A DNA stretch of 64,000 bases, taken from the human T2T-CHM13v2.0 reference genome, Homo sapiens. Position 1 is the stretch's first letter. Each line of letters starts with the position of its first letter. The notes beneath the pieces were generated by a model. That model searched no databases. It was not told the DNA's origin and saw only the letters and a program-made list of their open reading frames with translations. Positions 15,481 to 36,850 of the stretch are shown piece after piece. Position numbers and translations under genes: made by a program. The stretch lies in NCBI RefSeq assembly GCF_009914755.1, contig NC_060940.1. One strand, written 5' to 3'.

Positions 15481-15857
15481 TTCTTTCCTTATTTAGAAGA
15501 GAAGGGCATGACAGTGAGAGAGAGACATCAAAGATAGAGTAGCAGCAAAACAAAACTTCCTCCTTCAGTTGATGAACAACTGGAAGGGAATCGGAAGGGA
15601 CATAACTGTCTCACTGTGTGATTTGGGCTCAAGAACGCAGGACACTTCAGAGAAGGAACAAGCATGTCTAAGGCTCACAACACTGACTCAGAATTTTTTT
15701 CCTAAGTGTCAAATGCCAACAGTTTACATTTTAGAACTAGCAAAATTCCCAGGTCCAAATTTCCTCATCAACATGTCTTGGAGCCTTGAGTCTCATTGTG
15801 GTACATGAGGGCAGCCTCAGATGCCCCAGATGGACTCTAGGACAGAACAGGCTTCAT

Positions 15858-16061
15858 CTCTTCCAGCCGACTCCACACATCCAGCACATCATGGGCAAAG
15901 TTGAAGTATTCAGGCACCGGCTGCCTTCCCAGGCTGATGGCTTCCCAGGTGGCCACGATCTTCTGAGGAACAGGTAGAGGTGCTGGCTGCCCACAAGACC
16001 CACAGAATGCCCTGGAGTTCCTCAGTGCCTGGAGGACTAGGTGTCTCAGCCATGGTCTCAT
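15858..16061 (-). pseudogene. ACSM5P1: ACSM5P1 exon 2 coding part (mitochondrial presequence region)
   Basis: MRPWLRHLVLQALRNSRAFCGS...FAHDVLDVWSRLEE, 204 nt. Acceptor ...ggtgacag| before 16076; donor reads atgaag instead of gt. Confidence 0.9.
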
Positions 16062-17836
16062 GCGGTCGCCTCCTGTCTGTCACCAAAGAGAGGAAAGAGA
16101 GCATTGTCATAAATTCTGGGCTTTGGGGACAACACAGAGGTTAGGAGAAACCTGTGGTCAGTGCTGATGGTGACTGTGGTCCCTACTGACTTGTAGAACA
16201 AACTCTCCACATTTCTGAGCAGAAAGTCTCAGTTCTGCTGTGTGATGGTCATTTCTCTCCTCTGACCCCGAGGTCCGTCCTTTTGACCTCTCACTGACTT
16301 GTGGGTCTCTGGGTCTGAGGTCAGAACTCAGAGCCCACTTCTCCAGGCTCAATACTTCAAAGGCAATCCCTCAAAAAGCCTTTGGCCAATCCTGAACTGA
16401 CCTTGCAAAGCTGAAGACAGCTCTGGGGCAGCACCGTCCAAAAGAAATAGAATGTGAGCCACCTGTGCAATTTACAATGTTCTAGTACCATTGCCAATAG
16501 TTTGCCAATCCTCTCCCTTGGAAAGAGATATGCGACTTGTTCTTCCCATTTGGTCTTTGTCCTGAAAACAACAAAACCCAGAAAGCAGCACCTCTGCAAG
16601 ATTTCCCTGTGTATCCTTGCATTTTTGCAACTACATGGCCAATTGACAGGGAAAAGATCCAATTGATAGAGTGTCTCAAATTGTTCCAACATATAGAACA
16701 TGAATAATAATTATTTTCGAACTCCTGTTCAAAGGAAAACTCACTGACATGAGACAAGTGACTTTTGGCAATTACCATCAACATTTTGTTATAAAAATGC
16801 TCATACATACAACATTGATTTGTTAACATTTTAATGAACATGACAACACATATCTACCCATCTTTCCATTCCTCTACCCATCCCTCAGCCCATCTTATTT
16901 TACATGTATTTCCAACTGAATTGGAGGCATCAACATACTTCCTGCTGAATAGTTTGGCAAGACTAACATTAACTAGAATTCAATATTTCTTTATAAAATT
17001 TTCTTCTAAAGAAGAGTGACATAGAAGAAAATATGCAAATCTTAAGTGTGAGTTTACTAACTTTGAAAAGTACCTACACCAGCATAACCCACCTCCTTTT
17101 CAAGATCTACACTATTATGTCACCACAGAAAGTGAACTCTCCCTCTTCCTAGCCAATCCCTTTCTCATAGTAGGTTAATTTTGCTTAGTCTGGAATTTCA
17201 CATATATAGATGCATGCCATGCCATAGGTACTCTTTTGTGTCTGCCTTATTCTGCTCAACACAATGTTTCTGAAATCATTCCCATTGTTGCACAGATCTC
17301 TAATTCAATCCTTTCCATTTTGGACTCAGCATATTCTGAGTTTAACCTGTTGAATGGCTATCTCTGTTTAATTCGCCATCTTGAAACATTTAAAATTAAG
17401 ATGTTTTCAAGAATATACAGTTAAATCCAAGGAATCAATGTAGGAATGTTATCAGAAGGTGTTGGAAGTTACTCAGGTGAAATCTTTGTCTTAATTCACG
17501 TAAGAGTCTAATGGAATTAATATCAAGAATCTTAGAGAAACCCCATACTATTCATGCCATTTTTATGACCTCTACATTGGTTATGTTTAAGCACTAAAAT
17601 TTGATACTTATTTCTGAATGAAATCATCTCTTTATTGTATTTTTTTTACTTATGCTGATCTTTAAATAGCAAAAATTCATGTACTCTAAGAAAGAAGTAT
17701 GATTCAGAGGGATTCTTTCATCATATGGTACATGACAAATAGATACAATGTCATATTCAATTTAAAACATAAGTAAATATAAGTAAATAAGTAAATAAAA
17801 GTAAATAACTTTAAAGAAAAGGTAATTACCTTATAC

Positions 17837-18063
17837 CTAGCTTGTCTAACCCACAGCTGACAGGCCACATGCAGCCCAGGACAGCTTTGAATGCAACCCA
17901 AAATGAATGTGTAAACTTTCTTAAAACATTATGAGTTTTTTGTGTGTTTCTTATAGCTCATCAGCTATTGATAGTGTTAGTGTATTTTATGTGTGGCCCA
18001 AGTTGAAGAAAATTCTCCATCTTCTAATATAGCCCAAGGAAGCCAAAAGATTGGACATCCCTG
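17837..18063 (-). mobile_element. MER30 (hAT) DNA transposon
   Basis: Terminus reads cagggatgtccaatcttttggcttcc on the minus strand. Confidence 0.7.
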
Positions 18064-18301
18064 CTTTAGACCAAGAAAAAAGACACACCACATTCACAAA
18101 GCCTAAGAAGACTACCAGCCATGCGAGAAACATGGGACTGGTAATTTCCAATCTTTCTTGAAACGGTGGAATCCCCTGGTGATATCTGAGGGTGCACTTA
18201 CTTCTTGGAGGAGGTTGAGGGTTTCTAAGGATAATTCTTTGTGACTGAAATATTGTAAATGTCATTGACCCTTCTCATTATTTCAACTGCTATTATTCCA
18301 G

Positions 18302-18433
18302 GTCATCAATTTTCTGCCTGGCCATCTTCATCCTGGGCCTGACTTTTTTTGAATTCCTTGGATGCTTAACATTGTTGTTGTGTTCCTGGGAATTATTAAA
18401 TTTGCCATTTTCTTCTGGAATACTAGCTTTGGT
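18302..18433 (+). pseudogene. NPIP exon-2-like relic (inverted relative to the other NPIP-like exons)
   Basis: ttccag|VINFLPGHLHPGPDFF*IPWMLNIVVVFLGIIKFAIFFWNTSFG|atgagt versus NPIPA [43 protein letters not shown] (from memory). Confidence 0.75.
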
Positions 18434-19009
18434 ATGAGTATACTGACTTCCTGTAGAGGTATACTTGTAATCATAAATAAGAAGAAATCATTTTAAACAA
18501 TTCATGGTTCTGGACTTCATTATGAATATTGGGTTTTACCAAAAAAATCAGAAAAAAATAATTTATTAGCAGAAGAATTATAAAAATAGCTGCCATTTAC
18601 ATTATGAAAATTAAATAGGTTTGCATTTGTTTAGTAGGATGCCAACAGAGCTTTTGGTCAAAAGTATTTTTTTTTTTTTACCTTTGTTCTCTTTATCCAT
18701 GAGGGCAAAGATCATGTAAAACAATTTTGAGCATATAGTAGTTGCTTAACTAATAGGCATTGGATGAGTTATTAATTTGTGATAATAGTTCTTTCCCCTT
18801 AAATCTGATTGTTTGTTATTATGTTAATTCTGAGTCCAGAAACACAAATTTTTTAAGTGTTGATTTCTTGGATTTTTTAATGTGCTATTGCGCTTATTTT
18901 AAAGGCTAGTAAAACTGATCTTCTAAACAATTGCTATTCTCCTAGTAAATGTTCCTTCAATGGTAATGGAAGCCATGTGCAGACAAGACACCCTGCAGCC
19001 CTTCAATAA

Positions 19010-22000
19010 GAGCTGGCAGGCTGGCTGGATGAGAGGCTGGCCAAGGGGGCAGCTAGGAGGCTGGTCCAGAGGAAGTCTGAGAGGCCGGCACTCAGACCTC
19101 TCAGAGAGACTGGCTGAGAGGCTGTCTGGATTAAGAGCCAGACAAGAGGCTGCCTGAGAGGCTGTATGAGAGGCTGGCTGCCTCAGAGGTTGACTGGTTG
19201 AAAGGCTGGCTTAGAGGCAGGCTGAGAGGATGGCTGGATTAGAGGCTTGCTGAGATGCTGACTGGTAAGTTGGCTGGCTGAGAGGCTGGACAAGGGGGTG
19301 GCTGAAAGGCTTGCCAAGAGGCCGGCTGGCAATCTGGTACAGAGGCTGGCTGAGAGGCTGGTCCAGAGGATGGCGGCATGGGAGGCTGACCAAAAGGCAG
19401 GCCAGGAAGCTGGTTGGGAGGCTGTTTGAGAGACTGGCTGGGGAGGCTTGGAGAAAAGCTGGCTGAGAAGATGGCAGGCTGATAATCTCACTGACCGAGA
19501 GGCTAGCTTAGAGGCTTGCTGAGAGGGTGACTGGCTGAGAGGCTTATTGATAGGTTGGCGGGAAGGCTGGCTGGCTGAGAGGCCAGTCAAGGGGGTCTTG
19601 GAAGCTGGCCAAGAAGCCAGCTGCCTGGATGGCCAAGAGGACACCTGAGAGGCTGGCCGAGAGGCTGACTGGGAGGCTGTTTGAGAAGCTTGCTGCCTGA
19701 GAGGCTGGCTCAGAAGCTGCCTGGTTGAGAGGCTGGCTGAGAGGCTTGCTCAGACGCTGGCTGGCAGGTTGGCTGGCTGAGGGGCCACCCAAGGGTGTGG
19801 CTGGGAGGCTTGCTGAGAGACCAGGTGTCTCTCTGGTTGAGAGGCCAACTGGGAGGCTAGTCAAGAAGCCAGCTGGAAGGCTGGCTGAGAGGCTAGCCGG
19901 GAGGCTCCTTGAGAGGCTAGCAGTCTTGCTGACTGAGAAGCTGGCTGATAGGCTGGTCCAGAGGATGGCTGCATCAGAGGCTTCCAAAGAGGCAGACTGG
20001 GACGATGGCCTAGAGGGCTGTATGGGAGGCTGTGTGACAGGCTGGCTGGCTGAATGGGCTAGCGACTGGCTGAGAGAATGGCTGGCTGAGAATCTGCCTG
20101 GCTGAGAGAGGCTGGCTGCCTGAGAGGCTTGTTCAGAGGATGCCTGGTGGAGAGGCTGGCTTAGAGATTGACTGAGAGGCTGGCCGAGAGGCTGGCTGGG
20201 AGGCTGTTTGAGAGGCTGGGTGAGAAGATGACTGTTTCAAAGGCTGTCTGACTGACTGGCTGAGCTAATTAGAGGCTTACTGAGAGGCTGGATGGCTGAG
20301 AGGCTGGCTAGGAGGTTGTTTGAGACGCTGGGTGAGAAAATGACTGTTTCAAAGGCCATCTGACTGACTGGCTGAGTTAGAGTCTTACTGAGAGGCTGGC
20401 TGGCTGAGAGGCTTGCTGAGAGGCAGGATGGCAGACAGCCTGGCTGAGAGCTGGCTGCCTAAAAGGTCGGCTGAGAGGCTGCCTGAGAAGCTTGCTTGCT
20501 GAGAGGCCAGCTGGCAGGTTGGCTGGCTGAGAGGCTGGCAAAAAGGGCAGCTGTGAGTCTGGCCAAGAGGCTGGCAGTCTGGCTGGCAGTCTGGCTGGCT
20601 GAGAGGTTGACTGGAGGGCTAAATGAAAGACTGGCTGCATGGCCAAATGGCTGGCTGGGAGGCAGGCAGAGTGGCAAGTTGAGTGAATGGCTTGCTGAGA
20701 GCCTGGCTGTGAGGTTGCCAGGCTGAGAGGCTTGCTGAGAGTATGGCTGGCTTAGTACCTGGGAGAAAGTCTGGATGGGAGGGTGGCTGGCTGGGGAACT
20801 GGCCAAGGGGCCACCTGGGAGGCTGGCCAATGAGAGGCCAGCTGGGAGGGTAGCAGAGAGGCTGGATGAAGGGTGGCTGCCTGAGAGGCTTGCTCGCTGA
20901 GAGTCTGGCTGACTAGCTGTATTAAAGGTTGGCTGTGTGGTTTGCTGGGGGCCTGGTAGAGGGGCTGGTTGTGAGGCTGCATGACAGGCCTTCTGGCTGA
21001 TAGGCTGGCAGGCTGGCAGTCTGGCCAAGAGACTTGCTGGGTGGCTTGCCGAGTGGATGGCTAAGAGGCTGGTTGAGAGGCTGGCTGGGGAGGCCAGCAG
21101 AGAGGTGGCTGGTTGGCTGGCTGAGAATCTGCCTGGCTGACAGGCTGGGTTAGAATCTTGTTGAGAGGCTGGCTGGCTGAGAGGCTTGCTGAGAGGTTGG
21201 CTGGTTGGTTGGCTGGCTGAGAGATCGGCCAATGCCGGGCTGGGATGCTGGCCAAAGGACGCCTGGGAGGTTGGCCGACAGTCCAGCTGGGAGGCTTGCT
21301 GAGAGGCTGGTTGGAAAGTTGGCTAAGAGGCTGCCTGGAAGCCTGGGTGAGAGGACAGATGGGGGGCTGGCTCTGAATCTGCATGGCTGAGAGACTGGCT
21401 TAGAAGATTTATGAAAAGCTGGCTTAGAGGCTGTTTGAGAGGCTGGCTGTCTGAGAGGCTGACTCTGAGACCTCCTTGCTGAGAGACTGGCTTAGTGGCT
21501 TGCTGAGGGGCTTGCTAGCTGAGAGGCTTTTTGAGGGCCTGATTAGCAGGCTAGCTGGCTGAGGCAAGTCAAGGGGGTGACTTGGAGGATGGTCGAAGGG
21601 CCATCTAGCTCACTGGTCAAGAGGCTCGCTGGGAGGCTGGTTGAGAGGCTGGCTCCCTTGATGGTTGGGAGGCTGGCTGATAGGCTGGTCCAGAGGATGG
21701 CTGCATGGGAGACTGGAGAAAAGGCAGGCTGGGGGGCTGGATATCAGGCTGTTTAGAGGCTGTTTTAGAGGCTGTCTGGGGAGTCTGGCCAAGTGCAGGC
21801 TGTGTAGCTAGCTGAGAGGGTGGAGGTGAGAATGGCTGACTGAGAATCTGCATGGTTGAGAGGCTGGGTTAGAGGCTTGCTGAGATGCTGGCTGGCTGAG
21901 AGGCTTGTTGGGAGGTTGAGAGGTTGGCTGCCTGAGAGGCTAGCTCAGAGACCACGTTGTTGAGAGGCTGGCTTAGTGGCTTGCTGAGAGGCTGGCTTGC

Positions 22001-24175
22001 TGAGAGACTTGCCAAGAGGCTGGGAAGCAGGCTAGCTGGCTGAGACGCTGGTCAATGGGGCGTCTTGGAGGCTGGCCGAGAGGATGTCTGAGAGGATGGC
22101 TGGCTGTGTTTCTGCCTGGCTGAGAGGCTGGCTTAGAGGTTTGCTGAGAGGTTGGCTGGCTGAGAGGCTTTCCGAGAGCCTGGTGGTATGTTACAGAGGA
22201 TGGCTGCTTGACAGGCTGGCTCATAGGCTGCCTGGTGGAGAGGCTCACTTAAAGGCCAGCTGAGAGGCAGGTTGAGAGGTTTACTTGCTTAGAAGCTGGC
22301 TGGCAGGCTGGCTGGCTGGCTGAGAGTTTGCTTGGTTGGCTATCTTAAAGGCTGGCCAAGTAGCTTGTTGTGAGGCTGGATGGCAGGCTTTCCGGCTGAG
22401 AGGCGGTCTGTCTGACTGAGTGTCTGACTTAGTGTCTGGCTGAGAGGCTGCCTGGTTGAGAGGCTGGCTTAGAGGCTTGCTGTGAGGCTGGCTGGCTGAG
22501 GCTTGCTGTGCGGATGGCTGGCTGAGGCTTGCTGAGATGCCGACTGGCCGGTTGGCTGGCAGAGATGCCAGCCAATGGTGCAGCTGGGAGGCTTGCTGAG
22601 AGGCTGGCTGGCTCGCTGGTATAGAGGCCACTTAGGAAGCCAGTCAAGAGGCCAGCTGGGAGACGGACTCAGAGGCTGGCTGTCCTGCTGGCTGAGAGAG
22701 TGGCTCATAGCCTGGTCCAGAGGATAGCTGCAAGGGAGGCTGGGGAAAAGGCAGGCTGGGAGTCTGGCCTAGAGGCTGTCTGGGAGGCTGTTTAACAGGC
22801 TGGCTGGGGAAACCAGCTGAGAGGCTGGTTGACTGGTTGGCTGAGAAGCAGGCTGAGAAAATGCCAGGCTGAGAATCTGCCTGACTGAGAGGCTGGCTGA
22901 GATGTTTGCTGAGACAATGGCTGGCTAACTGTCTTGCTGAGAGGCTGGCCATGAAGCTGTTTGAGAGGCTGGCTGAGGAGGCTGAGCAAGAAGCCGGCAG
23001 GCAGGCTGACTGAGAGGCTGGCTGTCTGGCTGTTTGAGAGACTGGCTGTCTGGCTGTTTGAGAGACTGGCTGTCTGGCTGTTTGAGAGACTGGTTGAGCG
23101 GAAGTCTGGCTGAGAATCTACCTGGCTGAGAAGCCAGTTTAGAGGCCTGTTGAGAGGACGGCTGACTGAGAGACTTCTAAGAGTCTGTTTGAGAGGGTGG
23201 CTGCTTGAGAGGATGGCTGAGAGGCTGCCTGGCTGAGAGGCTGTCTTAGAGGCTTGCTGAGAGGTTGGCTATCAGGCTGACTGACTGAGAGGCTGGCAAA
23301 GGTGGTGCATATAGGCTGGCCAAGAGGACACCTGGGAGGCTGGGCAAGAGGTTAAATGCATGAGAGCCTGGATGAGAGACTGACTGGGAGGCTGTTTGAC
23401 AAGCTGGCTGCCTAAAAGCCTGGCTCAAAAGCTGCCTGGTTGAGAGGCTGGCTTAGAGGCTTGCTGAGAAGCTGGCTGTATTAAAGGCTTGCCTAGAGCA
23501 TGGTTGTCAGGCTGGCTGGCTGTCAGGCTGAGCAAGGGTTTATCTGGAAGGCTGGTCAAGATGCAGTCTGGGTGGCTGCCTGGCTGAGAGGCTGGTTGCC
23601 TGGGAAGCTGGCTGAGAGGCTGCCTGCCTGCAAGTCTGGCTTAGAGGGTTACTGAGAGGCTGGCTGGATTAGAGGCTTGCCTGGAGGCCAGCTAGTAGGT
23701 GGGCTGGCTGAGAGGCTAGCTGCTTGAAAGGGCAGTTGAGAGGCTGGCTGAGAGGCTGGCTGGGAGGCTGTTTGAGAGGCTGGCTGCCTGAGAGACTGGC
23801 TCAGAGGCTGCCTGGTTGAGAGGCTGGCTTAGAGACTTCCTGAGAGCCTGGCTGGTTGAGAAGCTTGCTAAGAGACTGGCTGGCAGGTTGGCTGGCTGAG
23901 AGATCTGCCAAGGGGGTGGCTTGGAATCTTGCCCAGAGGTGGGCTGGCTCCCTGGTTTAGAGGTTACCTCGAAGGCTCACCAACAGACTGCCTGGGAGGC
24001 TGGCAGAGAGACCCACAGGCTAGCTGTCTTAAAGGCCAGCTGGGAGGCTGGCCGAATGGCTGGGTGAGAGTCTGACCTAGAAGAGGGCTGGGAGGCTGGG
24101 CTGGCTGAGCTGCTGGCTGGCCAAGAGGCTGGATTAGAGGCTGAGTGGCTGGCTGGCTCAGACACCTCAGAGCCC
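19010..24175. repeat. 5.2-kb degenerate tandem repeat built from GGCT and 12-mers such as GGCTGAGAGGCT and GCTTGCTGAGAG
   Basis: Seen directly. G-rich plus strand; minus-strand frames encode S/Q/P/L/A-rich repeats (SQPLSQPASQPLSKPL). Confidence 0.95.
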
Positions 24176-25498
24176 TGGTCCATGGGTTTTCTTAACTATC
24201 AACCGCCTCTGGACAGGTAGGGCTCTAAGAAGCTACAAATGAGCTCTAAATCAGGGGTTCCCAGTACACATCAGAAAAAAGATCACTCATCCTGTAAACA
24301 GAGACTAAAATTTAAAATAGAAACAGCCATGGATTGGAAGAATATCAATAAACCCTGAAAAGAAACAGCACTGCTCCTTTTCTTCAAATCGTGTGGACAT
24401 TTAAAGTTCTGTACATTTATAGCTACTTTAACTTTCATATCTGTCCAGGTACTATCAAAATGTAAGAACAGAAATGGACATAAACTGACTAGAAGTACTG
24501 AGAAAAGGTAAGAGTGTCAGAAATTAACTGAAAAGTTTTAGGGTTACACCTAGAATGTTAGAAGAGTAAGATTACATGGAAATTTAATTTCCTAATGGAG
24601 TTATATTATATAGTCCACAATAAACAATTAAACAAAAAAATGAAGCTCCAAAAAATGTAAATAAATGCTTCTTTTCTTAAACCAGACCTCATGGTGCAAT
24701 ATTGATCTATGAAGACATAGCCAGAAAACGTCTGCTCTCATCAGCACATATAGCTCCCATTCTAAAATGTTATTGGTATTACTTTTCTCAAATGAAGGAA
24801 AAATAAAGCCTAGATGCTGACCGAAGGTGGAAGGGGAGCTGGTCCCTTTGCTTTCTAGGCTCCTCTTCTCAGTTAAAAGTAACCAAGATGTCAGAGTGGG
24901 GCAACGTCCACAGTCAGTGGATGATCCTGAGCTCTGCCATTCTCAGGGGACCATCGAAAAGACATTCAGCTAGGGCATCTGAGAAAAATAGGGTCCTGCC
25001 ACCAAGAGAGACACATGTTCTCTGTAGTAAGTGCTTAGAATTGCTTCCAGGAAATATAATTGTTACCCCACCTGAGCTCTCAACCCCAAAAGGAGAAGCA
25101 GGGTGTGTGGATTGTGCAGCAGAAGTGACTACCTTCACAGTGAGCTCCTACCTCTCCAGAAAGTGCTCTCTAGGCCCAGTTGTCCCTGGGCTGGCTCCTG
25201 ACTCTTGTGTATCTCCATGACTCTCTGCTTTTCCATCATTTCCCATCTGGAAGACAGAGAAAGAATTCACTTGAAGAAGAATTAAAACACCAAGTTCTTT
25301 ACTAGACACTCAAAGCTTCATCTGAAAACAAAAACATCCTTAAAAATGTCTATCACAATTACCTACCTGTGCTGCTTGTAGGCAGCCTTCCTCTCTGCCA
25401 TCTCCCTCTACAAGGCTTTTGCACAGAGCTGTGGGGAGAAAAATACATCCACGTGCTGACCTGGCAGACTATGCCCAAAAGCAAGGGGGAAAAACTGT

Positions 25499-25534
25499 CC
25501 AGTTGTCAAGGGCCTTTCTTATAGAAGGGACAAT
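25499..25534 (-). pseudogene. NPIP exon-7-like (36 nt)
   Basis: ttttcag|IVPSIRKALDNW versus IPPSARKALCNW; donor lost. Confidence 0.8.
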
Positions 25535-25644
25535 CTGAAAAAAACCAACACATGAGAAATTCTATGTTGAGAGAGTCTAACGGCCATGGCATCATCCACA
25601 TCAGCACCGAAGGAGCCTACAACTGTGGGGAGGAAGCTCCTTAC

Positions 25645-25705
25645 CTTGCGTCTGTAGTAGCTTTCTACTCACCCCCAAAGCTCTTGGGTGTCTTGAATTA
25701 TTTTC
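25645..25705 (-). pseudogene. NPIP exon-6-like
   Basis: KIIQDTQELWG*VESYYRRK|gtaagg versus KMFQRAQELRRRAEDYHKCK; acceptor reads tg. Confidence 0.75.
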
Positions 25706-26362
25706 CAATGGTTTAGAATCACTTTCATCAAATAAGCACCATTTCAGTATGATTTTAAATAATCTGCCATGTTTCTGTTATCCTCACAACTGCACCCTTA
25801 CACTATCTATACACAGAAGATGTATTTCACATGGTTTTCAAAGTACAGTATGATCAAAACTGTTGCTATAATGATTCTTCCTCTTTTACTTAATGCCTGC
25901 TGGGTTCTGAGTTCACATTGTCCTTACCCATTCTCATTCATCCTTCATTGGGCATCTTTGATTATAAAGCTCTAGTCTCCTTGTATTAATATCCTTGCCA
26001 TATTTCACAGAGTAGAAACGGCTGGGCACAGTCCATTTGAAAAAATGTGGTTGATCCTACAACACGCTTTTCTAAGAATGACGGCAACGGATACCACCCC
26101 TACAATGGCAGAAATGAACTGAGTTTCTACACAGTCTGACCCCATTGGGGTCAGATGTTTTGCTACTTCACATGTCTTGGTCACTGATAAATCTTAAGGT
26201 ATTTTGTTTTCTCTTGTGTGAATTCTCTCTTTCTCTAAATATGTCTTCTGACCATTTGTTTGTATTTCTGTGTTAACTGGGTCTAAACATTGTACAAAAG
26301 TTAAAAACAAAATACTCCAGTGGAAGTTTCCCATGTGGCTGGTGTTCAGTTTCTGAACTCAC

Positions 26363-26464
26363 TTGTAGGTGTGAATTTTTTCCATAACCCATTTCCCTTT
26401 TTCCTCCACCTCTGACAGCTGCCTCTCTTTTTCTGCTCACTCACATTCTTTCATTCTCAGCTTC
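26363..26464 (-). pseudogene. NPIP exon-5-like
   Basis: ctcag|(R)KLRMKECE*AEKERQLSEVEEKGKWVMEKIHTY|gtgagt versus [34 protein letters not shown]. Confidence 0.85.
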
Positions 26465-26688
26465 CTGAGATGAAAACGGAGAGAAATGCACACACATGAT
26501 CCACTTGCCCATGTGGGATTCTTTCTGCCATTCTGGCATCTGAAGGCCATGATTCAAAGGTCCCCCACTGCCTTCCCATACATGAAACAACTGATATTCA
26601 ACACTGGGGAGGAAGAATTGACACCTCCCATTGACAGACAGAAAGAATTTAAAAAAAAAAACAACACTCTGGCCTGTTAGCAAGTCAC

Positions 26689-26758
26689 CTGTAATTTCCA
26701 GCTCGTCTTTGTGTCTCCATAGTCCTATTCTTAAGTAAATAAGGACCATTAGAAGCTT
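26689..26758 (-). pseudogene. NPIP exon-4-like (short, divergent)
   Basis: catag|(E)ASNGPYLLKNRTMETQRRAGNY|gtgact, 70 nt, phase 1-2; weak match to LRRHVETKVRAK. Confidence 0.55.
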
Positions 26759-27135
26759 CTATGAGATGTGCTATGTGTACTTCTGGGGTCAGTCTTGTGC
26801 TTGACACACTGAAAGCTCATTTTAGTTCACTGTGGAAAATCAGATCTCACCAACTCATCACAACTAACTCCATCAAGATGGAGCAGGGGATCACTCTTCA
26901 TCTGACTCCTCCCATAGGAAGACCTGATTCTCATTTACAGGCTGATGCCAGAACCCAGACAATTAGCCTTTGAGAGATCCTTCCAGGACATGATGTCCTT
27001 AACCCTGCAGTTCACTACAGCATGTTTCCATGACTCAGGACTGGAACTCTTGTCATTGACCTGAAGGCAAGAAACTGTTCTCCTTTCCAGGGCAAACTCA
27101 TTTCCATACTATGGGGACTCCAACAGACAGCATAA

Positions 27136-27235
27136 CTTCCTGGCTCTGCTTGTTGGACCTCCAAGCTCTCTGCTGCAGATCTGTGGATCCATCATTTACA
27201 TTTCATGACTTTGAGACAGACTTGGGAAAAGACAT
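27136..27235 (-). pseudogene. NPIP exon-3-like
   Basis: ttcctag|[32 protein letters not shown], 100 nt, versus [33 protein letters not shown]; donor reads tt. Confidence 0.85.
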
Positions 27236-29309
27236 CTAGGAAATAACTGAAAAATGACATGAGAATACCTCACACCTGAACTGTACACTTCAACATTGTT
27301 AAGACGGCAATGGTCATGTTATAAATGTTTTATTATGAATATTTTACCACAGGTTAAAATGTTTAACAATTTGAAAAGGAAGTAATTATCTTCAGTTCTC
27401 TAAGTTCTAGAATTTGTAACATTTCACCCCCTGCTCCTTCCCGATCCGGAGCAGAGCATCTTATTCTTTCCCTGCTCTACTCAGGATTCACTTTCCCTTA
27501 TGTAACAAAAACATTGCAAATATTTTTTAAAATAATTACAAAACTTTACCTAGAAATCTGTAATTCAAATTAAAATGGAGATTAAAAATACAAACTCACA
27601 ATGGTCAGGAAGCCAAGATCTTTTTTTAAATATTTATAAATTTGCATTACACTATTTGTAATATGTCCAAAAATATGTCCACACTGTATGGAAGAATGGG
27701 AAAAATATAAGAAAAAAAGGCTTACGGTTATAGATGAAAATATTACATAAAGACATGTTTATATATACACAAAACTGAGAGAGGACAGCTGCTGTAATAA
27801 TAATACCTGGGTTATATTTCAACAAAATAAACACAGACTGTTGTTTAGCCCAAGTTTATAAAAACATTAACTTTTGAAAATTAATGTTCACTTTGCTGCT
27901 GAAACAGCTGCACTTCATGTCAGATTTTCAAAGTCCATAAAGATTTGCATAACATAGTCTTCCTGGAATTATAATTCAAACCGAGAGAATTGAAGTTAGT
28001 TAAAAACACAATACCAAGACACCAATAACAAGAGTTCCCCTTCATATTTTAGAGCATTGCACATAAAGAAAGCAATCAGTAGCAACCTTGGAAATCCATA
28101 TGGAAAGCAATAAAAACTTTCTGGGATGTATAGCCACTGCCACAAAAGGCACACATATTATTTTACAAACACTAGATTTATGAGTACTGGGGGAGAAAAT
28201 GAATACGAAATGTAATTCAGACCAACTGACATACCAAGACTCACTTTTGTGCAAACAAAACATCTCTAAAAAGCAGCCTCTGAGCTCTGCAGCACTTTCA
28301 TCTTCAGCCTCACAGTGGAGGTGAGTGCGGCCTGGGCTCCTGGGAAGGACACACTGTTTCTGAGTAGCCTCTGTCTGAAAGGGACCAGGAGCTCTGGGCA
28401 CAATGGTTAAAGATGTGGATCAAATGCACGAGAAGGACAAAGGCCATCTTTTCATTGACCAGGAAAACAACCCCCATCTTGGGCACTCTTGTCACATCTG
28501 ACAACTATCTGGATGCAGCTTATCAGTAGTGGGCTCCTACCTAGATTAGGTCCAAAGGGGCAAGGAAAGCTTAGGTTCTGACAGTCGACGGCCATGAGCA
28601 AGGGTGAAGGTGGAAAATGCAATGAGGAAAACTTATCCAAGTCTTCAAAGGTGAGGTAGGGAAAGAGAGTTTAACTGATCTATGAAAATGCAGCCAGGTA
28701 AGGAGAAAAAAATTCCAACAAAGATTATCAAGACATTTCCTTCTTCATAACCTCAAAAGAAACAACAAATTCTTCTTTGGTTGGAGGTACTCATGCGAGG
28801 TGATTCTGCCTTGATGCAGTGGTTGCTCCCCATCACTAGACTTTTCCAGATCCCTCTCTAAGAATCTGGTGCATGCCGGTCAGAACAAATACTCTCATCT
28901 CTATAAGGTGCCCTCTCCTGAGGGTAGTGGTGAGGCTTATAATGTGAGGGTGGAAACTTTCAAAGTAAAAACCTGTCATTTCTTTATGTTTGGACACTCA
29001 TAGGACTTTAAGACTCTTTCTGCTTTGGGTAAATCAATGATCTACACAAGACACATTTTACAAAACAAAGGTCAGTAGAGTTCTCATTCACATCCTGGTC
29101 ATGTCACTCCTAGTGACTCCCGCATTGCAAACATCCCAGCAGGATGCAACCCTTTCCTCTCCCATCTGATTGGCTTCTCAGGCTACCTTCACACCGATTG
29201 GACATAGACTCCCTGGAGGCAGCTCCCAAGAGGAGAACACATGGATGACTCCAAAGTTTCTAAACAAATCATCAAACCAGATGACACAAAACTCAAATGA
29301 CATTTCACT

Positions 29310-29590
29310 TTTTTGTTTTGTTTTGTTTGAGACAAGGTCTCACTCTGTCACCCAGGCTGGAGTGCAGTGGCACAATCTTGGCTCACTGCAGCCTCCACCT
29401 CCTGGGTCCAAGCGATCTGCCCACCTCAGCCTGGGACTACAGGCATGCCCCACCAGGCTAGACCAACTTTTTTTTTTTTTAATCTTTCATAGAGACGGGG
29501 TTTTGCTATGATGCTTAGGCTGGTCTTGAACTCCTGGACACAAGCGATCTGCCCACCTCGGCCCCCACAGTGTGTGAGGAGTACAGGCTG
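29310..29590 (-). mobile_element. Old Alu (AluJ-like)
   Basis: Diverged Alu motifs. Confidence 0.8.
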
Positions 29591-29659
29591 TGTAGTTTTA
29601 TGCCGCCTGACACTACCCAACAAAAAGGAAGAAACCCCATGGGTCCAGCATCTACTTAC

Positions 29660-29747
29660 ATGGGTGGGTTGATGGCTAGAAAACCCCTGCAGGAGGAGCC
29701 AAAACAGCAGCCACCACGCAGGTATGTCCTGGTCCTCTCAGGGCACC
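29660..29747 (-). pseudogene. NPIP-like signal-peptide exon with ATA at the start position
   Basis: Long pyrimidine tract, cag| acceptor, IPAWWLLFWLLLQGFSSHQPTH|gtaagt versus NPIPB15-type MRLRFWLLIWLLLGFISHQPTP. Confidence 0.8.
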
Positions 29748-30649
29748 CTGAGGTGGCCAGGACAGAGGTGGGAGTGGCTTAGGACTGGGGGAAGGAAGGG
29801 GATAGGGATGGGGGTGGGATTGCAGTTGAGGAGGGAGGGGGAGGGCAGGGAAAAGGAGGGAAGGGAAGGGAGGGCTGTTGGGCACCCAGAGCAGGAGGAA
29901 GACAAGGGGCTCTGGGAAAGGATCTGGTTCAAACTAAGTCCTCAAGCACCGGTGGGAGATTCAGCTACAGGTTAGAGAGAAAGGCGATCAGCTATCAGTG
30001 AAGCAGCAGGACACTTGGGGCAGGGGAGTGGGAGGCTCAGGAGCAGGACTCTGGTTTCCGCCAAACCTTCTCCTGTCTGGAAGCTGCCTTAGCAAATCCT
30101 GAGGCTTTATACTCCCTCTTCACAAATCCCCAGCCCGGTACTTGGTGCCTCACAGTGGACAATCCACAAGAAGCTCGTGTTCTTCCAAGGTCCCCTCCCC
30201 CCACCTGAACCCCCACCCCCAACCCAAGGACAAGTCCTCTCTGGAACCTTCGCAGACCTTCTGATTTCTGGGTGCCAGCCCACTCTGGCCCAGGGTAGGG
30301 TCCTGGGGGGCACACCTCTCTTTCTCTCTTGACTTCTAGATCTGCTAAGCGCCATGCAACACCGCCCTGTCTAAACATACCCACACAGGGTCCCAGGCTC
30401 AACCCTGTGCCCCTGTCCCCACAGTCACCAACCCTGGCCTCTCTGGCATCTCAGGGCCCAGGAACAGCCCTTCTGAAGGCCCTGGAAGGGGCACACACCC
30501 AGCCCTGGGTTTGGAACCTGGAACATATCCCCTTCCAAGAGAGCTCAGGAGGGCCAGGTCATGCCTGGGTCTGTTCTCTCCACTGCCTTAGGAGTGCCCT
30601 GTGGAGTGCCATCGCCGTGTGGTTGTCCTGTGGGCTGGGGTCTGGGACT

Positions 30650-31146
30650 GTGTGCATGTCTGGATGTGTTAATCTGCACGTATGCACCTGTGCGTCTGAG
30701 TATCTGTGAGTATGTCACCGTGTAGCTGTCTCTGGATAGCTCTGTTTTTCTCTATCTTTGTATGCATTTGTGTGTCTTTCTTCCTGAATGAGTGTGTGTT
30801 TGTTGTACAAATATGTGTGTTTGTGACTGTGTAATGTGTCTCTGGGCATGTATGCCCCTGTGAGAGTGTCTGTGTATGCCTGTGTTCTGTATCTGTGTGT
30901 GTTGTTTGGTGTGTGTGTGTATGTGTGTGTTGTGTGTGTGTGAATTCGCCTCTCCTTTGGGCATCCCTGATTGTGTCTCTATTTGTTTATGTTTCTCTTA
31001 ATGTCTGTGTTCTCTGTCTGTTTCCCTGCCTGTAGGTCTGTGACTGTGTGTGTGTGTGTGTGTGTGCATGCACGAGTGTCCATTGTGTGTGGGGTCTGCC
31101 CTGTGGGGCTGTGTCTCATGGCCTTGTGTATCTGTGGTCTCCTGGT

Positions 31147-31188
<42 letters not shown>

Positions 31189-31290
31189 GCCTGTCTGTGG
31201 GCCAAACTGCTGAGTGCCCAGGTGAAGCTGGGGCGGTTCTGTGCCTTTGTGTCTCTGTGCTTGTGGTGTCTATTTATTTACCTGTGAGTT
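30650..31290. repeat. Degenerate (TG)n-rich region with pure TG arrays
   Basis: Seen directly. Other TG/CA arrays lie at 2351-2383, 10925-11038 and 53455-53495. Confidence 0.9.
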
Positions 31291-32200
31291 CCTGGGTTTG
31301 TACACCTAAGAAATTGGCAGTCACAGAGGGCCCTCTGTGGGTGAGAAGGGGACAATATGTGCTCCTCTCATTCCCAGGCTAGGCCCTTTCTGCCCCTGCT
31401 CTTCTGAGCCTCTGTTGGCCCCCTGGTAGTTCCCTCTTAGGCCCCAAGGAGGGATGGAGAAAAGGGTCAGGTTACAGAATTCCAGGCCAAGGATGTGAGG
31501 AGGGCTCCAGATGCCTGGACAGGGTTACATTCAAAGAAGGAAAATTGTCTGTGGTCAAGGAATTCTGGACTACAGGGACCCTAGGCCCTGGGAGGGTGAA
31601 TGAGTGGGGTCCTCTGGCAAGGGCTGGGGGACAGAGTTCCTGGGTCACTTGGAAGATCTGATATGTAGGGTCCTACAGGGGAAAGCTGGAGGCAGGGCTC
31701 CTAGGCCCATGGCAGGGCTGCAGGAGTCCTGGGTCCCTAGAGGTTGGGGCTCTCACTCACACACACCATAGGTTGGGATGCATGTGCACATGGGCATTAT
31801 TGGGGGACACAAAGGCAGAAGCCCATTGGGCGGAAGATCATTGAGTGGAAGACCACTGGGTGGAAGCCCATTGGGTGGGGTGGCAGAGGTGGTCTGGCAG
31901 GCAAATGTAGTCCCCAAACCAAGGCTGACCACCCTGGACATCCGTCCTGCCCTGGCCTTGCTGGGGCCTCATCCAGACCATGGGCAGGTGCCTGGAGCCA
32001 CATGGGGCATCCCTCCTGTACCCCTGTGTCCTGGCTATTGAAGGGTGCTTAGGTAACCCTGAGATGCTGGTGCCAGGAGGGAGAATCTGGTCCCAAGTTA
32101 TCTCAGGTTAGAGATTAGGGAGAATTACAGAGGGAGGGCATTTAACATAGGTTAATTCCCTGAATAAATGCTCAACACAGGGTATTGTTGATATCAGTAT

Positions 32201-32206
32201 TTTATT
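32201..32206 (-). terminator. ACSM1: Likely ACSM1 polyadenylation signal AATAAA
   Basis: tttatt on the plus strand about 230 nt after the stop; an ATTAAA variant lies at 32278-32283. Confidence 0.65.
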
Positions 32207-32435
32207 ACTTGCGTTATGAGTGCTCACCTGGGAAATTCTAAAGATACAGAGGACTTGGAGGAAGCAGAGCAACTGAATTTAATTTAAAAGAAGGAAAACA
32301 TTGGAATCATGGCACTCCTGATACTTTCCCAAATCAACACTCTCAATGCCCCACCCTCGTCCTCACCATAGTGGGGAGACTAAAGTGGCCAGGGATTTGC
32401 CTTAGGTGTGCAGTGCGTTCTGAGTTCACTGCCGA

Positions 32436-32522
32436 TTACATCTGACCAGTCTCCTTTTTCCGAAGTTCCTTCCGTTCAATCTTGCCAGTGATGGTTTTTG
32501 GCAGCTCTGAGACAAACTCCAC
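32436..32522 (-). CDS. ACSM1: ACSM1 last coding exon
   Basis: cag|[28 protein letters not shown]; contains the catalytic-lysine motif LPKTxTGK. Confidence 0.95.
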
Positions 32523-33045
32523 CTGGTTGAGGATAAAGCAAATCCACAGTGATTGAGTCCTGCTGCCATTTCCTAACAATTCTCCACTCTCCTCCTCTGC
32601 CCCTCCACAGTCTCCCATGCAGGCTGACACCATATGGTGGCCTTAATGGAGTCCCCAAGTATTTCAGGTTCTCCCCCTGGCCCCTAGAAGGTGGATGTAC
32701 CCATGGGATTTGCTTTGACCCAGGAGATGTGAGTGGAAGTGAAGCATGTAACCTTGAGGCAAAAGAGTTGGGAGCCATTGAGACTGACCACCCTCTCCTT
32801 CATCTCTTAGAGCAGCTGACAGGTCCCATATGGAGGCTGCTCCTTTATTCTGGTGGCAGAATGAGGAGATGTGGAGGGCAGGGCCAAGGAGAGCCATGGA
32901 GGACATGAGGCATGAGCAGAAAAAGAGCCTTCAGTGTTGTAAACCTCCATTGTTTGGGGCTGTTTGTTACCTCCAGTGATACCTAGCCCGTCCTAGCAGG
33001 GAACGCTTCAGGGCCACCAGATCCCTTCCATCTGCCCTCACTCAC

Positions 33046-33165
33046 CTTCCTTGGGTACTTGTATGGGGCTGTCACTGACTTGACATGCTGCTGCAGTTCC
33101 TTGGTCAGCTGATCCTTGTCATGGGACAGGAACTGTGGGGTCAGGACAATAAAGGCCTTCACCAC
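33046..33165 (-). CDS. ACSM1: ACSM1 exon 13
   Basis: [40 protein letters not shown], 120 nt, cag|...|gtgagt. Confidence 0.95.
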
Positions 33166-33633
33166 CTGCAGAATGAAGTCATGGGCTCACAGTGAGTGCC
33201 AACCTACTCCATAGCTTAAAAAGTCAATGTTTATTGAATGAGTGGTAAAACAAGGTGACACTGAACCCTACAGTGTTTTGGAAAAGGAGAGGACCAGGTG
33301 TAAATCCCTGTGTTTCCAATTCCCACTCCATGCCTTGAAAAGTTATTTGACCTCTCCTTAACCTCAGTTTTCTTTTCTGTGAAATGGGGACAATAAAGCT
33401 TCCATTCTTCATTTGGTTTCTTTAAAGCTTCCATGAGATAATACATATAAAACATCCAGCTAGTTTACTTTTATTATTACTCCCGTCATCAATATTTTCA
33501 TCATCATTTTTACTGTTATTATATATGTAATTCAGTGCCAGAAACCCAATGGGCATTCCATAATTACTGGCAATTTATTATTTTTAGATTAGCAATGTTA
33601 TCCAAGTTTTATTGCACAAGGTCTCACATATAG

Positions 33634-34052
<419 letters not shown>

Positions 34053-34372
34053 TAGCTGGGTGATGTGGAGAGGTTACTTAACCTCCTCCTGCTTCTCTTT
34101 CCTCATCTATAAAAAGCATAAGTGTTCTTAGATTACTACATTGTGTGAGAGTTAAGTGATTTGGCATATATAAGTGCTCATTACATAGTATCTAGCATCC
34201 TTTTATTCAGAGCCACAGAGAGTCCACACTGTCCCCTGGTGCCATACCGTGTAAACGCACATGCACACTATGCCCTTCCACCAAGGCTGCACAGGTAAAG
34301 CCTGGATGTTTCCCCTGCACCTGCTTTCCTAGTGCCCACGCACAGACATGATGATCTCTGTGTTCTCCTCAC

Positions 34373-34472
34373 CTCCCCTCGAATCGGGTCTGGGCTGCCC
34401 ACCACGGCTGACTCCGCCACCGCTGGGTGCTCCACCAAAGCGCTTTCAACCTCTGCAGGCCCGATGCGATAC
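34373..34472 (-). CDS. ACSM1: ACSM1 exon 12
   Basis: [33 protein letters not shown], 100 nt, AG/GT. Confidence 0.95.
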
Positions 34473-35052: not shown

Positions 35053-35340
35053 AGGCTGGGCATGGTGGCTCACACCTGTAATTTTAGCACTGTGGGAGGC
35101 TGAAACAGGGGGATCAATGGAGGTCAGGAGTTCAAGACCAGGCTGGCCAAGATGGTGAAACCCCATCTCTACTAAAAGTATAAAAATTAGCTGGACATGC
35201 TCACTTGAAGCCAGGAAGCAGAGCTTGCAGTGAACCAAGATCAGGCCACTGCACTCCAGCCTGGGTGACAGTGGGAGACTCTGTCTCAGAAAAATAAAAT
35301 AAAATAAAATAAAATAAAAAATAAAATAAAAAAATAAAAA
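35053..35340 (+). mobile_element. Alu, internally deleted
   Basis: Alu motifs with (AAAAT)n tail. Confidence 0.85.

Positions 35341-36498: not shown

Positions 36499-36850
<352 letters not shown>

What the first reader, a model, noticed from the sequence alone, without database searches (positions are those of the whole stretch)
19010..24250. 5.2-kb GGCT-based repeat occupies the position of the NPIP terminal coding VNTR
Seen: just before the array the minus strand reads GAGCCCTACCTG...TTAAGAAAACCCATGGACCAG (EPYL...LRKPMDQ). It then runs into kilobases of S/Q/P/A/L-rich repeat ORFs of up to 257 aa. From memory, NPIP's last exon has WPYL...LKNRMGHQ followed by a Pro/Ser-rich coding VNTR. The array motif CTCAAACAGCCTCCCAG loosely resembles NPIP's CTCAAGACACCTCCCGAG. 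Inference: a giant decayed or runaway repeat exon of a secreted or membrane mucin-like ancestor. Because 4-nt units shift the frame, all three minus frames give similar peptides.
Basis: partly seen in the sequence, partly recalled or inferred. Interest (0 to 1): 0.75.

Follow-up and report, generated by a model that had tools for sequence, protein, structure and literature searches.

The report
Old GGCT minisatellite beside NPIP relic
The 5.15-kb GGCT-based repeat is a real but non-coding, four-base-period tandem array at a breakpoint inside a scrambled, very old NPIP-like pseudogene just downstream of ACSM1; it is not the NPIP coding repeat.

Summary
The array is real. It spans window 19012-24160, has a 4-nt base period and is strongly G-rich on the + strand. 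The minus-strand ORFs are also real, up to 287 aa, but they match what the base composition predicts. There is no codon periodicity. Indels are mostly 4 or 8 nt. The ORFs have no Pfam match and no protein relatives.

The window holds an unannotated, roughly 82%-identical relic of the NPIP/LCR16a duplicon on the minus strand, with three Pfam NPIP exon matches. The array lies 3' of its last recognisable exon.

The array is not the NPIP exon-8 VNTR:
- "EPYL...LRKPMDQ" carries two in-frame stops and lies in intron sequence. The chrX paralogue has that same segment and also the true exon 8, about 2 kb apart.
- Old paralogues on chr10 and chr11 carry a 36-nt proline-rich VNTR.
- The array resembles no NPIP VNTR beyond shuffled controls.
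- Intron 7 and exon 8 are missing from the whole window.

Both array edges are breakpoints. The right edge is the truncated NPIP-like intron. The left edge is a 318-bp PRDM6 fragment followed by the inverted NPIP-like 5' segment.

The relic is colinear with LCR16a through ACSM1's last two exons, so this may be the family's donor locus.

The parts
19012..24160 (.). Degenerate GGCT-based tandem array. The core unit is GGCTGGCTGAGA, the base period is 4 nt, and the + strand is G-rich.
   Evidence: TRF; composition; autocorrelation, stop counts and ORF simulations; self-alignment and indel spectrum; CpG observed/expected 0.10 and GC skew 0.38.
18696..19013 (+). 318-bp copy of a PRDM6 intron/exon junction (about 250 nt of intron plus the first 65 nt of an exon). 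It forms the left border of the array.
   Evidence: 87.3% identical to chr5:123687212-123687528, the only such place found. The chr5 exon is 98-100% identical to primate PRDM6 proteins.
16499..18697 (+). Segment B: the NPIP-like 5' segment. It is inverted and displaced relative to all other copies.
   Evidence: 76-87% identical to LCR16a copies, chr10, chr11, chr7 and chrX. In those copies it lies between the sequences matching window 27499 and 27509, in the opposite orientation.
18302..18457 (+). NPIP-like exon (Pfam NPIP positions 1-51) with one in-frame TGA.
   Evidence: 61.2 bits, E 2.2e-13. A sub-ORF scores 32.5 bits against a cut-off of 27.5.
24161..25366 (-). Truncated stretch of the relic's last intron, shared with chrX (all of it) and chr10 (24698 onwards) and absent from LCR16a. 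It contains the 'EPYL...LRKPMDQ' string at 24170-24225.
25366..25515 (-). NPIP-like exon (Pfam positions 161-207) with an in-frame TAG.
   Evidence: 60.7 bits, E 3.2e-13; translation.
27101..27238 (-). NPIP-like exon (Pfam positions 43-83) with stops. A deletion at 27059/27060 removes the exon for Pfam positions about 57-134.
   Evidence: 35.2 bits. chr10, chrX and LCR16a have 1.7-3.0 kb more sequence at this point, and that sequence holds the missing exon.
27509..32211 (-). Segment C: the upstream part of the NPIP-like duplicon. Here it is joined directly to segment A at 27499/27509, the site where segment B lies in the other copies.
32223..33546 (-). The 3' end of ACSM1 (last exon and the 120-nt penultimate exon 33046-33165), also carried by LCR16a and the chr10 copies in the same order and orientation.
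   Evidence: protein P0121
19132..19264 (+). Annotated exon 1 of lncRNA LOC107984831, inside the array. Its splice donor is a GTAAGT within the repeat. Intron 1 covers the rest of the array.
   Evidence: hub annotation; sequence at 19255-19275
15500..16488 (.). End of the ACSM5/ACSM2 inverted segmental duplication, which abuts segment B.
   Evidence: 95% identical to chr16:20342076-20343052 on the opposite strand; the match stops at window 16488.

Best explanation
The array is an old, non-coding minisatellite built from a GGCT tetranucleotide. Its dominant units are 12, 16, 24, 28 and 40 nt. It grew by replication slippage and unequal exchange, and it does not encode protein.

It sits at a compound breakpoint in a scrambled, pseudogenised copy of the NPIP/LCR16a duplicon immediately downstream of ACSM1. 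On its right the NPIP-like last intron is cut off. Intron 7, exon 8 and the exon-8 VNTR are gone. On its left lie a small captured PRDM6 fragment and then the NPIP-like 5' segment, inverted and out of place.

Shown: the array's anatomy, the absence of any coding signal, the breakpoints and the NPIP-like relic.

Inferred:
- The array either arose at the junction or was a fragile, GC-skewed site at which the breaks occurred.
- The rearrangement is tens of millions of years old.
- Its present roles, if any, are incidental. It supplies the first exon and splice donor of a + strand lncRNA, it carries an annotated enhancer, and it may be prone to R-loops when transcribed on the + strand.
For: Non-coding tandem array.
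- Identity is 0.37-0.52 at every lag that is a multiple of 4, and 0.24, 0.16 and 0.24 at lags 3, 6 and 9.
- TRF periods of 16, 28 and 40 nt are as prominent as 12, 24 and 36 nt.
- Among 1824 indels between self-aligned parts, 514 are 4 nt and 118 are 8 nt. There are 234 of 3 nt against 241 of 2 nt.
- Minus-strand frames are open because the unit has no stop in any minus frame: 110 stop triplets on the minus strand against 285 on the plus strand. The longest frame and the number of frames match Markov simulations.
- All 6 array ORFs, and the ORF that begins at LRKPMDQ, have no Pfam match.
- The 287-aa ORF has no relative at E <= 0.001 among 8000 scored candidates.

Breakpoints.
- Homology to chrX ends exactly at 24161.
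- PRDM6 homology ends at 19013.
- Segment B ends at 18697 in every copy and is inverted here.

Not exon 8.
- Intron 7 and the exon-8 start of LCR16a have homologues on chr10, chr11 and chrX at 77-82% identity, but none in the 64-kb window.
- No array of this kind lies at any other NPIP-like locus. Genome-wide matches to a 1.6-kb array query are the array itself plus low-identity (64-80%) GGCT-rich satellites elsewhere.

Age.
- The PRDM6 fragment is 87% identical to its source.
- The relic is at K2P distance 0.18-0.20 from the chr10, LCR16a and chrX lineages.
- The best internal duplications in the array are 79-87% identical.
Against: - No orthologous locus from another species could be examined. 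The array's age, and whether it ever held a long frame, rest on human sequence alone.
- The distance from the last NPIP-like exon to the array (about 1.2 kb) is close to the exon 7 to exon 8 distance in LCR16a (about 1.2-1.3 kb).
- A 12-nt, four-residue tandem unit has a reported precedent in NPIP: PPSP/PPSA tandemisation in 6 of 21 chimpanzee copies (PMC7419210, passage seen).
- One of the five VNTR comparisons (chr10a) was borderline, with 8 of 100 shuffles at or above the observed score.
- Self-alignment identity of 62-68% at almost any offset is near the floor for such a repeat, so the array cannot be dated from it.
Confidence: 0.75

Rival explanations
1. One reading: the array is the decayed or runaway terminal coding VNTR (exon 8) of an NPIP-like gene, possibly after a 12-nt subunit became tandemly repeated.
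For: - NPIP-like exons lie directly upstream on the same strand.
- The spacing to the last exon is similar to that in LCR16a.
- A four-residue tandemisation inside NPIP VNTRs is reported for chimpanzee copies (PMC7419210, passage seen).
- A splice-acceptor-like 'cctgtccag' precedes the array on the minus strand.
Against: - The preceding 'EPYL' segment is homologous to chrX intron sequence that lies about 2 kb upstream of the true exon-8 homologue in that copy.
- It has two in-frame stops.
- Its alignment to NPIP exon 8 is at chance level, with 63 of 500 shuffles as high.
- Array versus chr11, chr10b, chr10a, NPIPB3 and NPIPA VNTRs: 41, 74, 8, 97 and 73 of 100 dinucleotide shuffles score at least as high.
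- The period is 4 nt and indels are 4 or 8 nt.
- Intron 7 and exon 8 are absent from the window.
Confidence: 0.05
2. The array was captured from a GGCT-rich satellite elsewhere, as a third templated insertion in the same complex rearrangement that brought in the PRDM6 fragment.
For: - Parts of the array match large CTTGGCTGG-type satellites at chr2:87.4-91.7 Mb, chr1:143-144 Mb, chr15:19.3 Mb and chr16:35.06 Mb at 65-80% identity.
- A small foreign fragment (PRDM6) sits at the same junction.
Against: - Those matches are short (70-330 nt) and low in identity. They involve a 9-nt unit that lacks the GAGA part, which is what two GGCT-rich low-complexity sequences would give.
- No locus shares the array's longer landmarks.
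Confidence: 0.1
3. The array is the decayed repeat exon of some other lost gene, such as a mucin-like secreted protein, unrelated to NPIP.
For: The predicted peptides are Ser/Pro/Gln/Ala/Leu-rich in all three minus frames, and 19 of the 20 open frames of at least 80 aa are on the minus strand.
Against: - ORF lengths are explained by composition.
- There is no 3-nt periodicity.
- There is no Pfam match and no protein relative.
- Threonine is only 4% of residues.
- No signal-peptide exon or other exon of such a gene was seen next to the array. The neighbours are a PRDM6 fragment and NPIP-like intron.
Confidence: 0.05

Closest known systems
NPIP exon-8 coding VNTR (57/69-nt units in LCR16a; 36-nt Pro-rich units in the older chr10 and chr11 paralogues)
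   Same: Both are tandem arrays lying 3' of NPIP-type exons on the gene's strand. Both are C-rich on the sense strand and give Pro/Ser-rich translations.
   Different: - NPIP VNTR unit lengths are multiples of 3, they follow a conserved exon-8 leader, and they are read in frame.
- This array has a 4-nt period, no leader, no detectable sequence similarity, and stops in all frames.
G-rich, strand-asymmetric non-coding minisatellites (classical human VNTR loci; this comparison is from general knowledge)
   Same: It has short head-to-tail units, strong purine/G strand bias, hierarchical sub-repeats, slippage-type indels of whole sub-units, and a location at a rearrangement-prone site.
   Different: It is unusually long (5.15 kb) and degenerate. 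There is no evidence here of recent homogenisation apart from three identical 24-nt copies at about 23030-23100. Length polymorphism was not tested.
Pericentromeric CTTGGCTGG satellite at chr2:87-92 Mb in T2T-CHM13
   Same: It is built on GGCT, and it gives weak cross-matches of 65-80% identity.
   Different: That satellite has a 9/17/26-nt unit, spans hundreds of kilobases and is more homogeneous (76-79% matches). It lacks the GAGA element.

Membership tests
NPIP exon-8 coding VNTR | It follows the conserved exon-8 acceptor and leader (...PY.PYL...MG[HC]QPPPP). | tested here: not met
   The leader is present in LCR16a, chr10, chr11 and chrX. It has no homologue in the window. The window's 'EPYL' string aligns at chance level and has two in-frame stops.
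NPIP exon-8 coding VNTR | The unit length is a multiple of 3 and is read in frame. | tested here: not met
   The period is 4 nt, with peaks at 12, 16, 24, 28 and 40 nt. Indels are 4 or 8 nt. There are 30-48 stops in each minus frame.
NPIP exon-8 coding VNTR | Sequence similarity to known NPIP-type repeat units. | tested here: not met
   In 5 comparisons, 41, 74, 8, 97 and 73 of 100 dinucleotide shuffles scored at least as high as the observed alignment.
NPIP exon-8 coding VNTR | It lies 3' of NPIP exons 1-7 on the same strand. | tested here: inconclusive
   It lies 3' of the Pfam 43-83 and 161-207 exons. It is separated from them by a truncated intron, and the first exon is inverted on the far side of the array.
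NPIP family (Pfam PF06409): the flanking relic, not the array | A match to the family model above the curated cut-off. | tested here: met
   Three exon matches in the window score 61.2, 60.7 and 35.2 bits against a cut-off of 27.5. One was re-scanned at 32.5 bits.
NPIP family (Pfam PF06409): the flanking relic, not the array | Intact gene order and an open reading frame. | tested here: not met
   There are in-frame TGA and TAG stops, one exon is deleted at 27059/27060, the first exon is inverted and displaced, and exon 8 is absent.
Non-coding minisatellite / VNTR | Head-to-tail tandem units of about 10-100 nt with degenerate copies. | tested here: met
   TRF gives 54 rows with periods of 8-188 nt and 56-95% matches. 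The autocorrelation agrees.
Non-coding minisatellite / VNTR | Length variation between haplotypes. | not testable with these tools
   Only one human assembly is held; no pangenome was available.
Mucin-like PTS repeat exon | One long open frame that is Ser/Thr/Pro-rich, with codon-phased units. | tested here: not met
   The longest frame is 287 aa, as composition predicts. Threonine is 4% of residues. There is no 3-nt periodicity, no Pfam match and no protein relative.

The most novel reading that the evidence does not exclude
The stretch just downstream of ACSM1 at 16p12.3 is the donor (progenitor) locus of the whole NPIP/LCR16a core-duplicon family.
- The duplicon was copied from here together with ACSM1's last two exons. 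This would explain the 'MVKL' ACSM1-derived start exon of NPIPB, and of the chr10 paralogue, as ancestral synteny rather than an independent duplication.
- The original gene was then destroyed by a complex rearrangement. That rearrangement's junctions cluster at the two edges of the GGCT array, which would have acted as a fragile, GC-skewed hub for breakage or template switching.
Probability: 0.45. Interest if true: 0.65.

Novelty: new member of a known kind. Interest (0 to 1): 0.4.

Why it matters
Taken alone, the array is an ordinary, if long and old, non-coding minisatellite. The claim that it is a giant mucin-like or NPIP coding exon can be dropped.

Its surroundings are worth a specialist's look. 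NPIP/LCR16a is the best-known core duplicon of human chromosome 16, and its ultimate origin is not settled. This window holds an unannotated relic about 82% identical to it. The relic is colinear with LCR16a from the NPIP-like exons up through the last two exons of the intact ACSM1 gene.

I found no description of this relic in the passages I read of three papers:
- PMC7419210;
- PMC12790995 and its preprint, which call the ACSM1-derived exon an 'independent duplication';
- bioRxiv 10.1101/2025.07.09.663898.

Full-text searches for NPIP with ACSM1 and for LOC107984831 also turned up nothing. I did not read the supplementary files of these papers, and they may bear on this.

If the donor-locus reading holds, it dates and places the birth of the family. 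It would also give a natural example of a repeat array marking a multi-breakpoint rearrangement.

Tried and rejected
- Right flank as a common transposable element: rejected. Window 24161-24600 matches only chrX in the genome, and the chrX neighbourhood has no array.
- Segments A and B as parts of one LINE or ERV: rejected. Matches are confined to LCR16a copies and a few paralogous loci, and they carry Pfam NPIP exons.
- A GGCT array next to the PRDM6 source on chr5: none found.
- Homology between the array and PRDM6, chrX intron sequence, or the spacers of other copies: none found. Only Alu hits appeared.
- A clean higher-order repeat unit: not found. Self-alignments give 62-68% identity at nearly any offset. 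Only short local duplications reach 76-87%: a 112-nt unit repeated 2.2 times, 21890-22083 against 23742-23939, and 19145-19345 against 23751-23963.
- Canonical G-quadruplex motifs: 0.
- Pfam scan of window:25359-25505:- gave 0 families because it is not the frame of the NPIP match. The matching frame (25366-25515) carries a TAG.
- The search for NPIP-like proteins outside primates found only 2 proteins, from bonobo and orangutan. The ancestral VNTR in non-primates was therefore not seen.
- The extent of LCR16a homology beyond window 33546 could not be judged, because the scored list was filled by Alu hits.
Full report

Yes for the array.
- Tandem Repeats Finder reports 54 overlapping rows between 19145 and 23903. 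The commonest consensus is CTGGCTGAGAGG/GGCTGGCTGAGA, periods run from 8 to 188 nt, and matches are 56-95%.
- The block is sharply bounded. GC is 0.55-0.61 and GC skew +0.33 to +0.45 from 19000 to 24000. On both sides GC is about 0.30-0.38 with skew near zero.
- Over 19010-24160 the + strand is 40.5% G and 18.4% C.
- Base identity at every lag that is a multiple of 4 is 0.37-0.52. It is 0.52 at lag 12, 0.49 at 24, 0.48 at 40, 0.47 at 28 and 0.45 at 16. All other lags give 0.16-0.26.
- The quoted flank is present on the minus strand at 24225->24170.
- Of 20 stop-to-stop frames of at least 80 aa over 18900-24400, 19 are on the minus strand. The longest is 287 aa.
- All three minus frames are about 20% S, 13-15% P, 13-14% L, 11-12% A and 11-12% Q.

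2. IS IT CODING?

Nothing indicates that it is.
- The unit has no stop in any minus frame. Stop triplets number 110 on the minus strand and 285 on the plus strand.
- Markov chains of order 1, 2, 3 and 5 trained on the array give a longest open frame averaging 237-268 aa. Of 300 simulations per order, 41-95 reach 287 aa. They give 19-21 frames of at least 80 aa, against 18 observed.
- There is no 3-nt periodicity: lags 3, 6 and 9 give 0.24, 0.16 and 0.24.
- Periods that break the frame (16, 28, 40 nt) are as strong as 12, 24 and 36 nt.
- Of 1824 indels between self-aligned parts of the array, 514 are 4 nt and 118 are 8 nt. Three-nt indels (234) are no commoner than 2-nt ones (241).
- Six array ORFs, and the ORF that begins at 'LRKPMDQ', match no Pfam family at E <= 0.1.
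- The 287-aa ORF has no relative at E <= 0.001 among the 8000 best word-sharing candidates of 157-503 aa. That database does hold named vertebrate proteins.

3. THE NPIP CONNECTION IS REAL, BUT DIFFERENT FROM WHAT WAS PROPOSED

A search of the window's own genome (T2T-CHM13) with Pfam NPIP (PF06409) gave 150 matches. Three lie in the window, all above the 27.5-bit cut-off:
- 18302-18457 on the + strand: positions 1-51, 61.2 bits, one TGA.
- 25366-25515 on the minus strand: positions 161-207, 60.7 bits, one TAG (translation).
- 27101-27238 on the minus strand: positions 43-83, 35.2 bits, with stops.

blastn against fetched paralogous loci defines three segments:
- Segment A, window 24161-27499.
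- Segment B, window 16499-18697.
- Segment C, window 27509-32211.

These are 71-88% identical to LCR16a/NPIP copies on chr16 and chr18. They are similarly close to older copies at chr10:80.38 Mb, chr10:81.11 Mb, chr11:3.38 Mb and chrX:50.37 Mb. Further fragments lie on chr7 and chr1.

In all those copies the order is A, inverted B, C. That matches the exon order in a predicted bonobo protein of the chr10 type (P0121). In the window:
- A and C are joined directly at 27499/27509.
- B lies inverted on the far side of the array.
- A deletion at 27059/27060 removes the exon for Pfam positions about 57-134.

So an NPIP-like gene on the minus strand has been scrambled here. RefSeq lists no such pseudogene in the hub's table.

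4. WHY THE ARRAY IS NOT THE EXON-8 VNTR

- In an NPIPB-type LCR16a copy, exon 8 starts about 1.2 kb 3' of the Pfam 161-207 exon. It reads ...[36 protein letters not shown]... and then enters the 57-nt VNTR.
- LCR16a homology with the window stops at 25367, the end of that penultimate exon.
- Intron 7 and the start of exon 8 of LCR16a do have homologues on chr10 (both copies), chr11 and chrX at 77-82% identity. They have none anywhere in the 64-kb window. Reciprocal queries from chr10, chr11 and chrX hit only Alu elements.
- Window 24161-25366, which holds 'EPYL...LRKPMDQ', is a stretch of the last intron shared with chrX (all of it) and chr10 (24698 onwards) and absent from LCR16a.
- On chrX the counterpart of the EPYL segment and the true exon-8 homologue both exist, about 2 kb apart. 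The two cannot be the same thing.
- The window string reads EPYLSRGG**LRKPMDQ, with two in-frame stops.
- Its best local alignment to NPIP exon 8 is matched or beaten by 63 of 500 shuffles.
- The older paralogues show what the ancestral terminal repeat looked like. chr11 has a 36-nt Pro-rich unit in 27.8 copies, and chr10 has at least 9 copies. An orangutan protein reads ...PPPLECPLGPQ... (P0122).
- The array was aligned to five NPIP-type VNTRs: chr11, chr10b, chr10a, NPIPB3 and NPIPA. In these, 41, 74, 8, 97 and 73 of 100 dinucleotide shuffles scored at least as high as the real sequence.
- A 1.6-kb array query finds no array at any other NPIP-like locus. It hits only itself and low-identity GGCT-rich satellites elsewhere.

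5. WHAT BORDERS THE ARRAY

- Right edge (24160/24161): homology to chrX stops here, to the base. chrX continues with unrelated, non-repetitive sequence.
- Left edge (19013): window 18696-19013 is 87% identical to a single place, chr5:123687212-123687528. That place is the 3' end of an intron plus the first 65 nt of an exon. The exon's translation is 98-100% identical to primate PRDM6. The chr5 locus has no array.
- Immediately left of the PRDM6 fragment begins the inverted segment B, whose end at 18697 is the same in every copy.
- Segment B's other end (16499) abuts the 95%-identical ACSM5/ACSM2 inverted segmental duplication, which stops at 16488.

Three unrelated junctions therefore lie within 5.5 kb, two of them at the edges of the array.

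6. MOST LIKELY EXPLANATION AND MECHANISM

The array is a non-coding minisatellite derived from a GGCT tetranucleotide. It grew by slippage and unequal exchange, as the 4- and 8-nt indels, nested periods and local duplications of 76-87% identity show.

It occupies a compound breakpoint that destroyed the 3' half of the NPIP-like gene.

I infer, but cannot show, one of two histories:
- The array expanded from a seed at the junction.
- It was already there, and its strong GC skew made it the site of breakage or template switching. The small templated-looking PRDM6 insertion fits a replication-based complex rearrangement.

Rough dating is inference, using 1.2-2.2e-9 substitutions per site per year:
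- 13% divergence of the PRDM6 fragment puts the rearrangement at about 30-60 million years ago.
- K2P of 0.17-0.20 between the window, chr10, LCR16a and chrX lineages, in an unresolved star tree, puts the duplicon burst at about 40-75 million years ago.
- 5% divergence makes the ACSM5/ACSM2 duplication much younger.

Present-day roles look incidental:
- Exon 1 of the + strand lncRNA LOC107984831 (19132-19264) lies in the array and uses a GTAAGT donor inside the repeat.
- RefSeq marks an enhancer at 22725-23224.
- CpG observed/expected is 0.10 and there are no canonical G4 motifs, so it is not a CpG-island promoter.

7. A WIDER POINT NOTICED ON THE WAY

Homology between the window and LCR16a and chr10 copies continues, in the same order and orientation, past segment C. 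It runs through ACSM1's last exon (32185-32522) and its 120-nt penultimate exon (33046-33165):
- Window 32223-33000 is 82% identical to LCR16a copies.
- Window 32999-33546 is 75% identical.

That ACSM1 exon translates to [40 protein letters not shown]. The bonobo chr10-type protein P0121 begins [32 protein letters not shown]... and then runs into the NPIP exons.

ACSM1 is intact here, in its native gene cluster. The simplest reading of the colinearity is that the old duplicon was copied from this locus together with the ACSM1 3' end. On that reading, this relic is what remains of the donor.

PMC7419210 (passages) places the ancestral LCR16a at 16p13.1. It reports NPIP copies in dog, and it lists an ACSM2A/ACSM5 duplicon as LCR16a-associated. 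I saw no description of this relic there. I did not read the supplements of these papers.

8. VERDICT

The NPIP neighbourhood is real. The claims that the array is a coding VNTR, a mucin-like exon, or preceded by an exon-8 leader are not supported.

The array itself is an ordinary kind of element. The scrambled NPIP-like relic next to ACSM1 is the more interesting result and deserves a comparative check in other species.

Noticed in passing
window 24161-33546 and 16499-18697: An unannotated NPIP/LCR16a-like relic at K2P distance 0.18-0.20 from the LCR16a, chr10 and chrX lineages. It is colinear with LCR16a through ACSM1's last two exons, which makes it a candidate donor locus of the NPIP core duplicon. 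The published view in the passages I read is that the ACSM1-derived NPIPB start exon came from an independent duplication.
   Followed up: partly
L016/L017 (chr10:80.377-80.393 Mb) and L018/L019 (chr10:81.105-81.122 Mb): An inverted pair of old NPIP-like copies, 98.7% identical to each other. Their NPIP exons are open (frames of 99, 84 and 70 aa), they carry an ACSM1-derived exon, and they have a 36-nt Pro-rich exon-8 VNTR. A bonobo predicted protein (P0121, 292 aa) corresponds to this type.
   Followed up: partly
L014 7039-8027 (chr11:3.384-3.385 Mb): The chr11 NPIP-like copy keeps exon 8 with 27.8 copies of a 36-nt unit but lacks segment A. An orangutan protein (P0122) has the same PPPLECPLGPQ repeat. 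A separate array of 8.3 copies of a 46-nt unit lies at L014 4000-4380.
   Followed up: no
L003-L008 and L037-L039 (chr2:87.4-91.7 Mb); also chr1:143-144 Mb, chr15:19.3 Mb and chr16:35.06 Mb: Large pericentromeric satellite with the unit CTTGGCTGG (periods 9, 17 and 26 nt; 76-79% matches). It cross-matches the array only weakly. I could not put a family name to it.
   Followed up: partly
window 33020-38600 against chr22:17.719-17.724 Mb: An 82-86% identical partial duplicate of the 3' part of ACSM1 lies on chr22. A weaker ACSM1-like piece lies at chr10:96.05 Mb.
   Followed up: no
window 18696-19013: A 318-bp fragment of PRDM6 (intron end plus 65 nt of an exon; 87% identical to chr5:123.687 Mb) is stranded between the inverted NPIP-like segment and the array.
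   Followed up: yes
window about 23030-23100: Three identical 24-nt copies (gagagactggctgtctggctgttt) inside the RefSeq enhancer interval 22725-23224. This is the only sign of recent slippage in an otherwise degenerate array.
   Followed up: no
window 27059/27060: A clean deletion relative to chr10, chrX and LCR16a (1.7-3.0 kb) removes the NPIP-like exon for Pfam positions about 57-134.
   Followed up: partly
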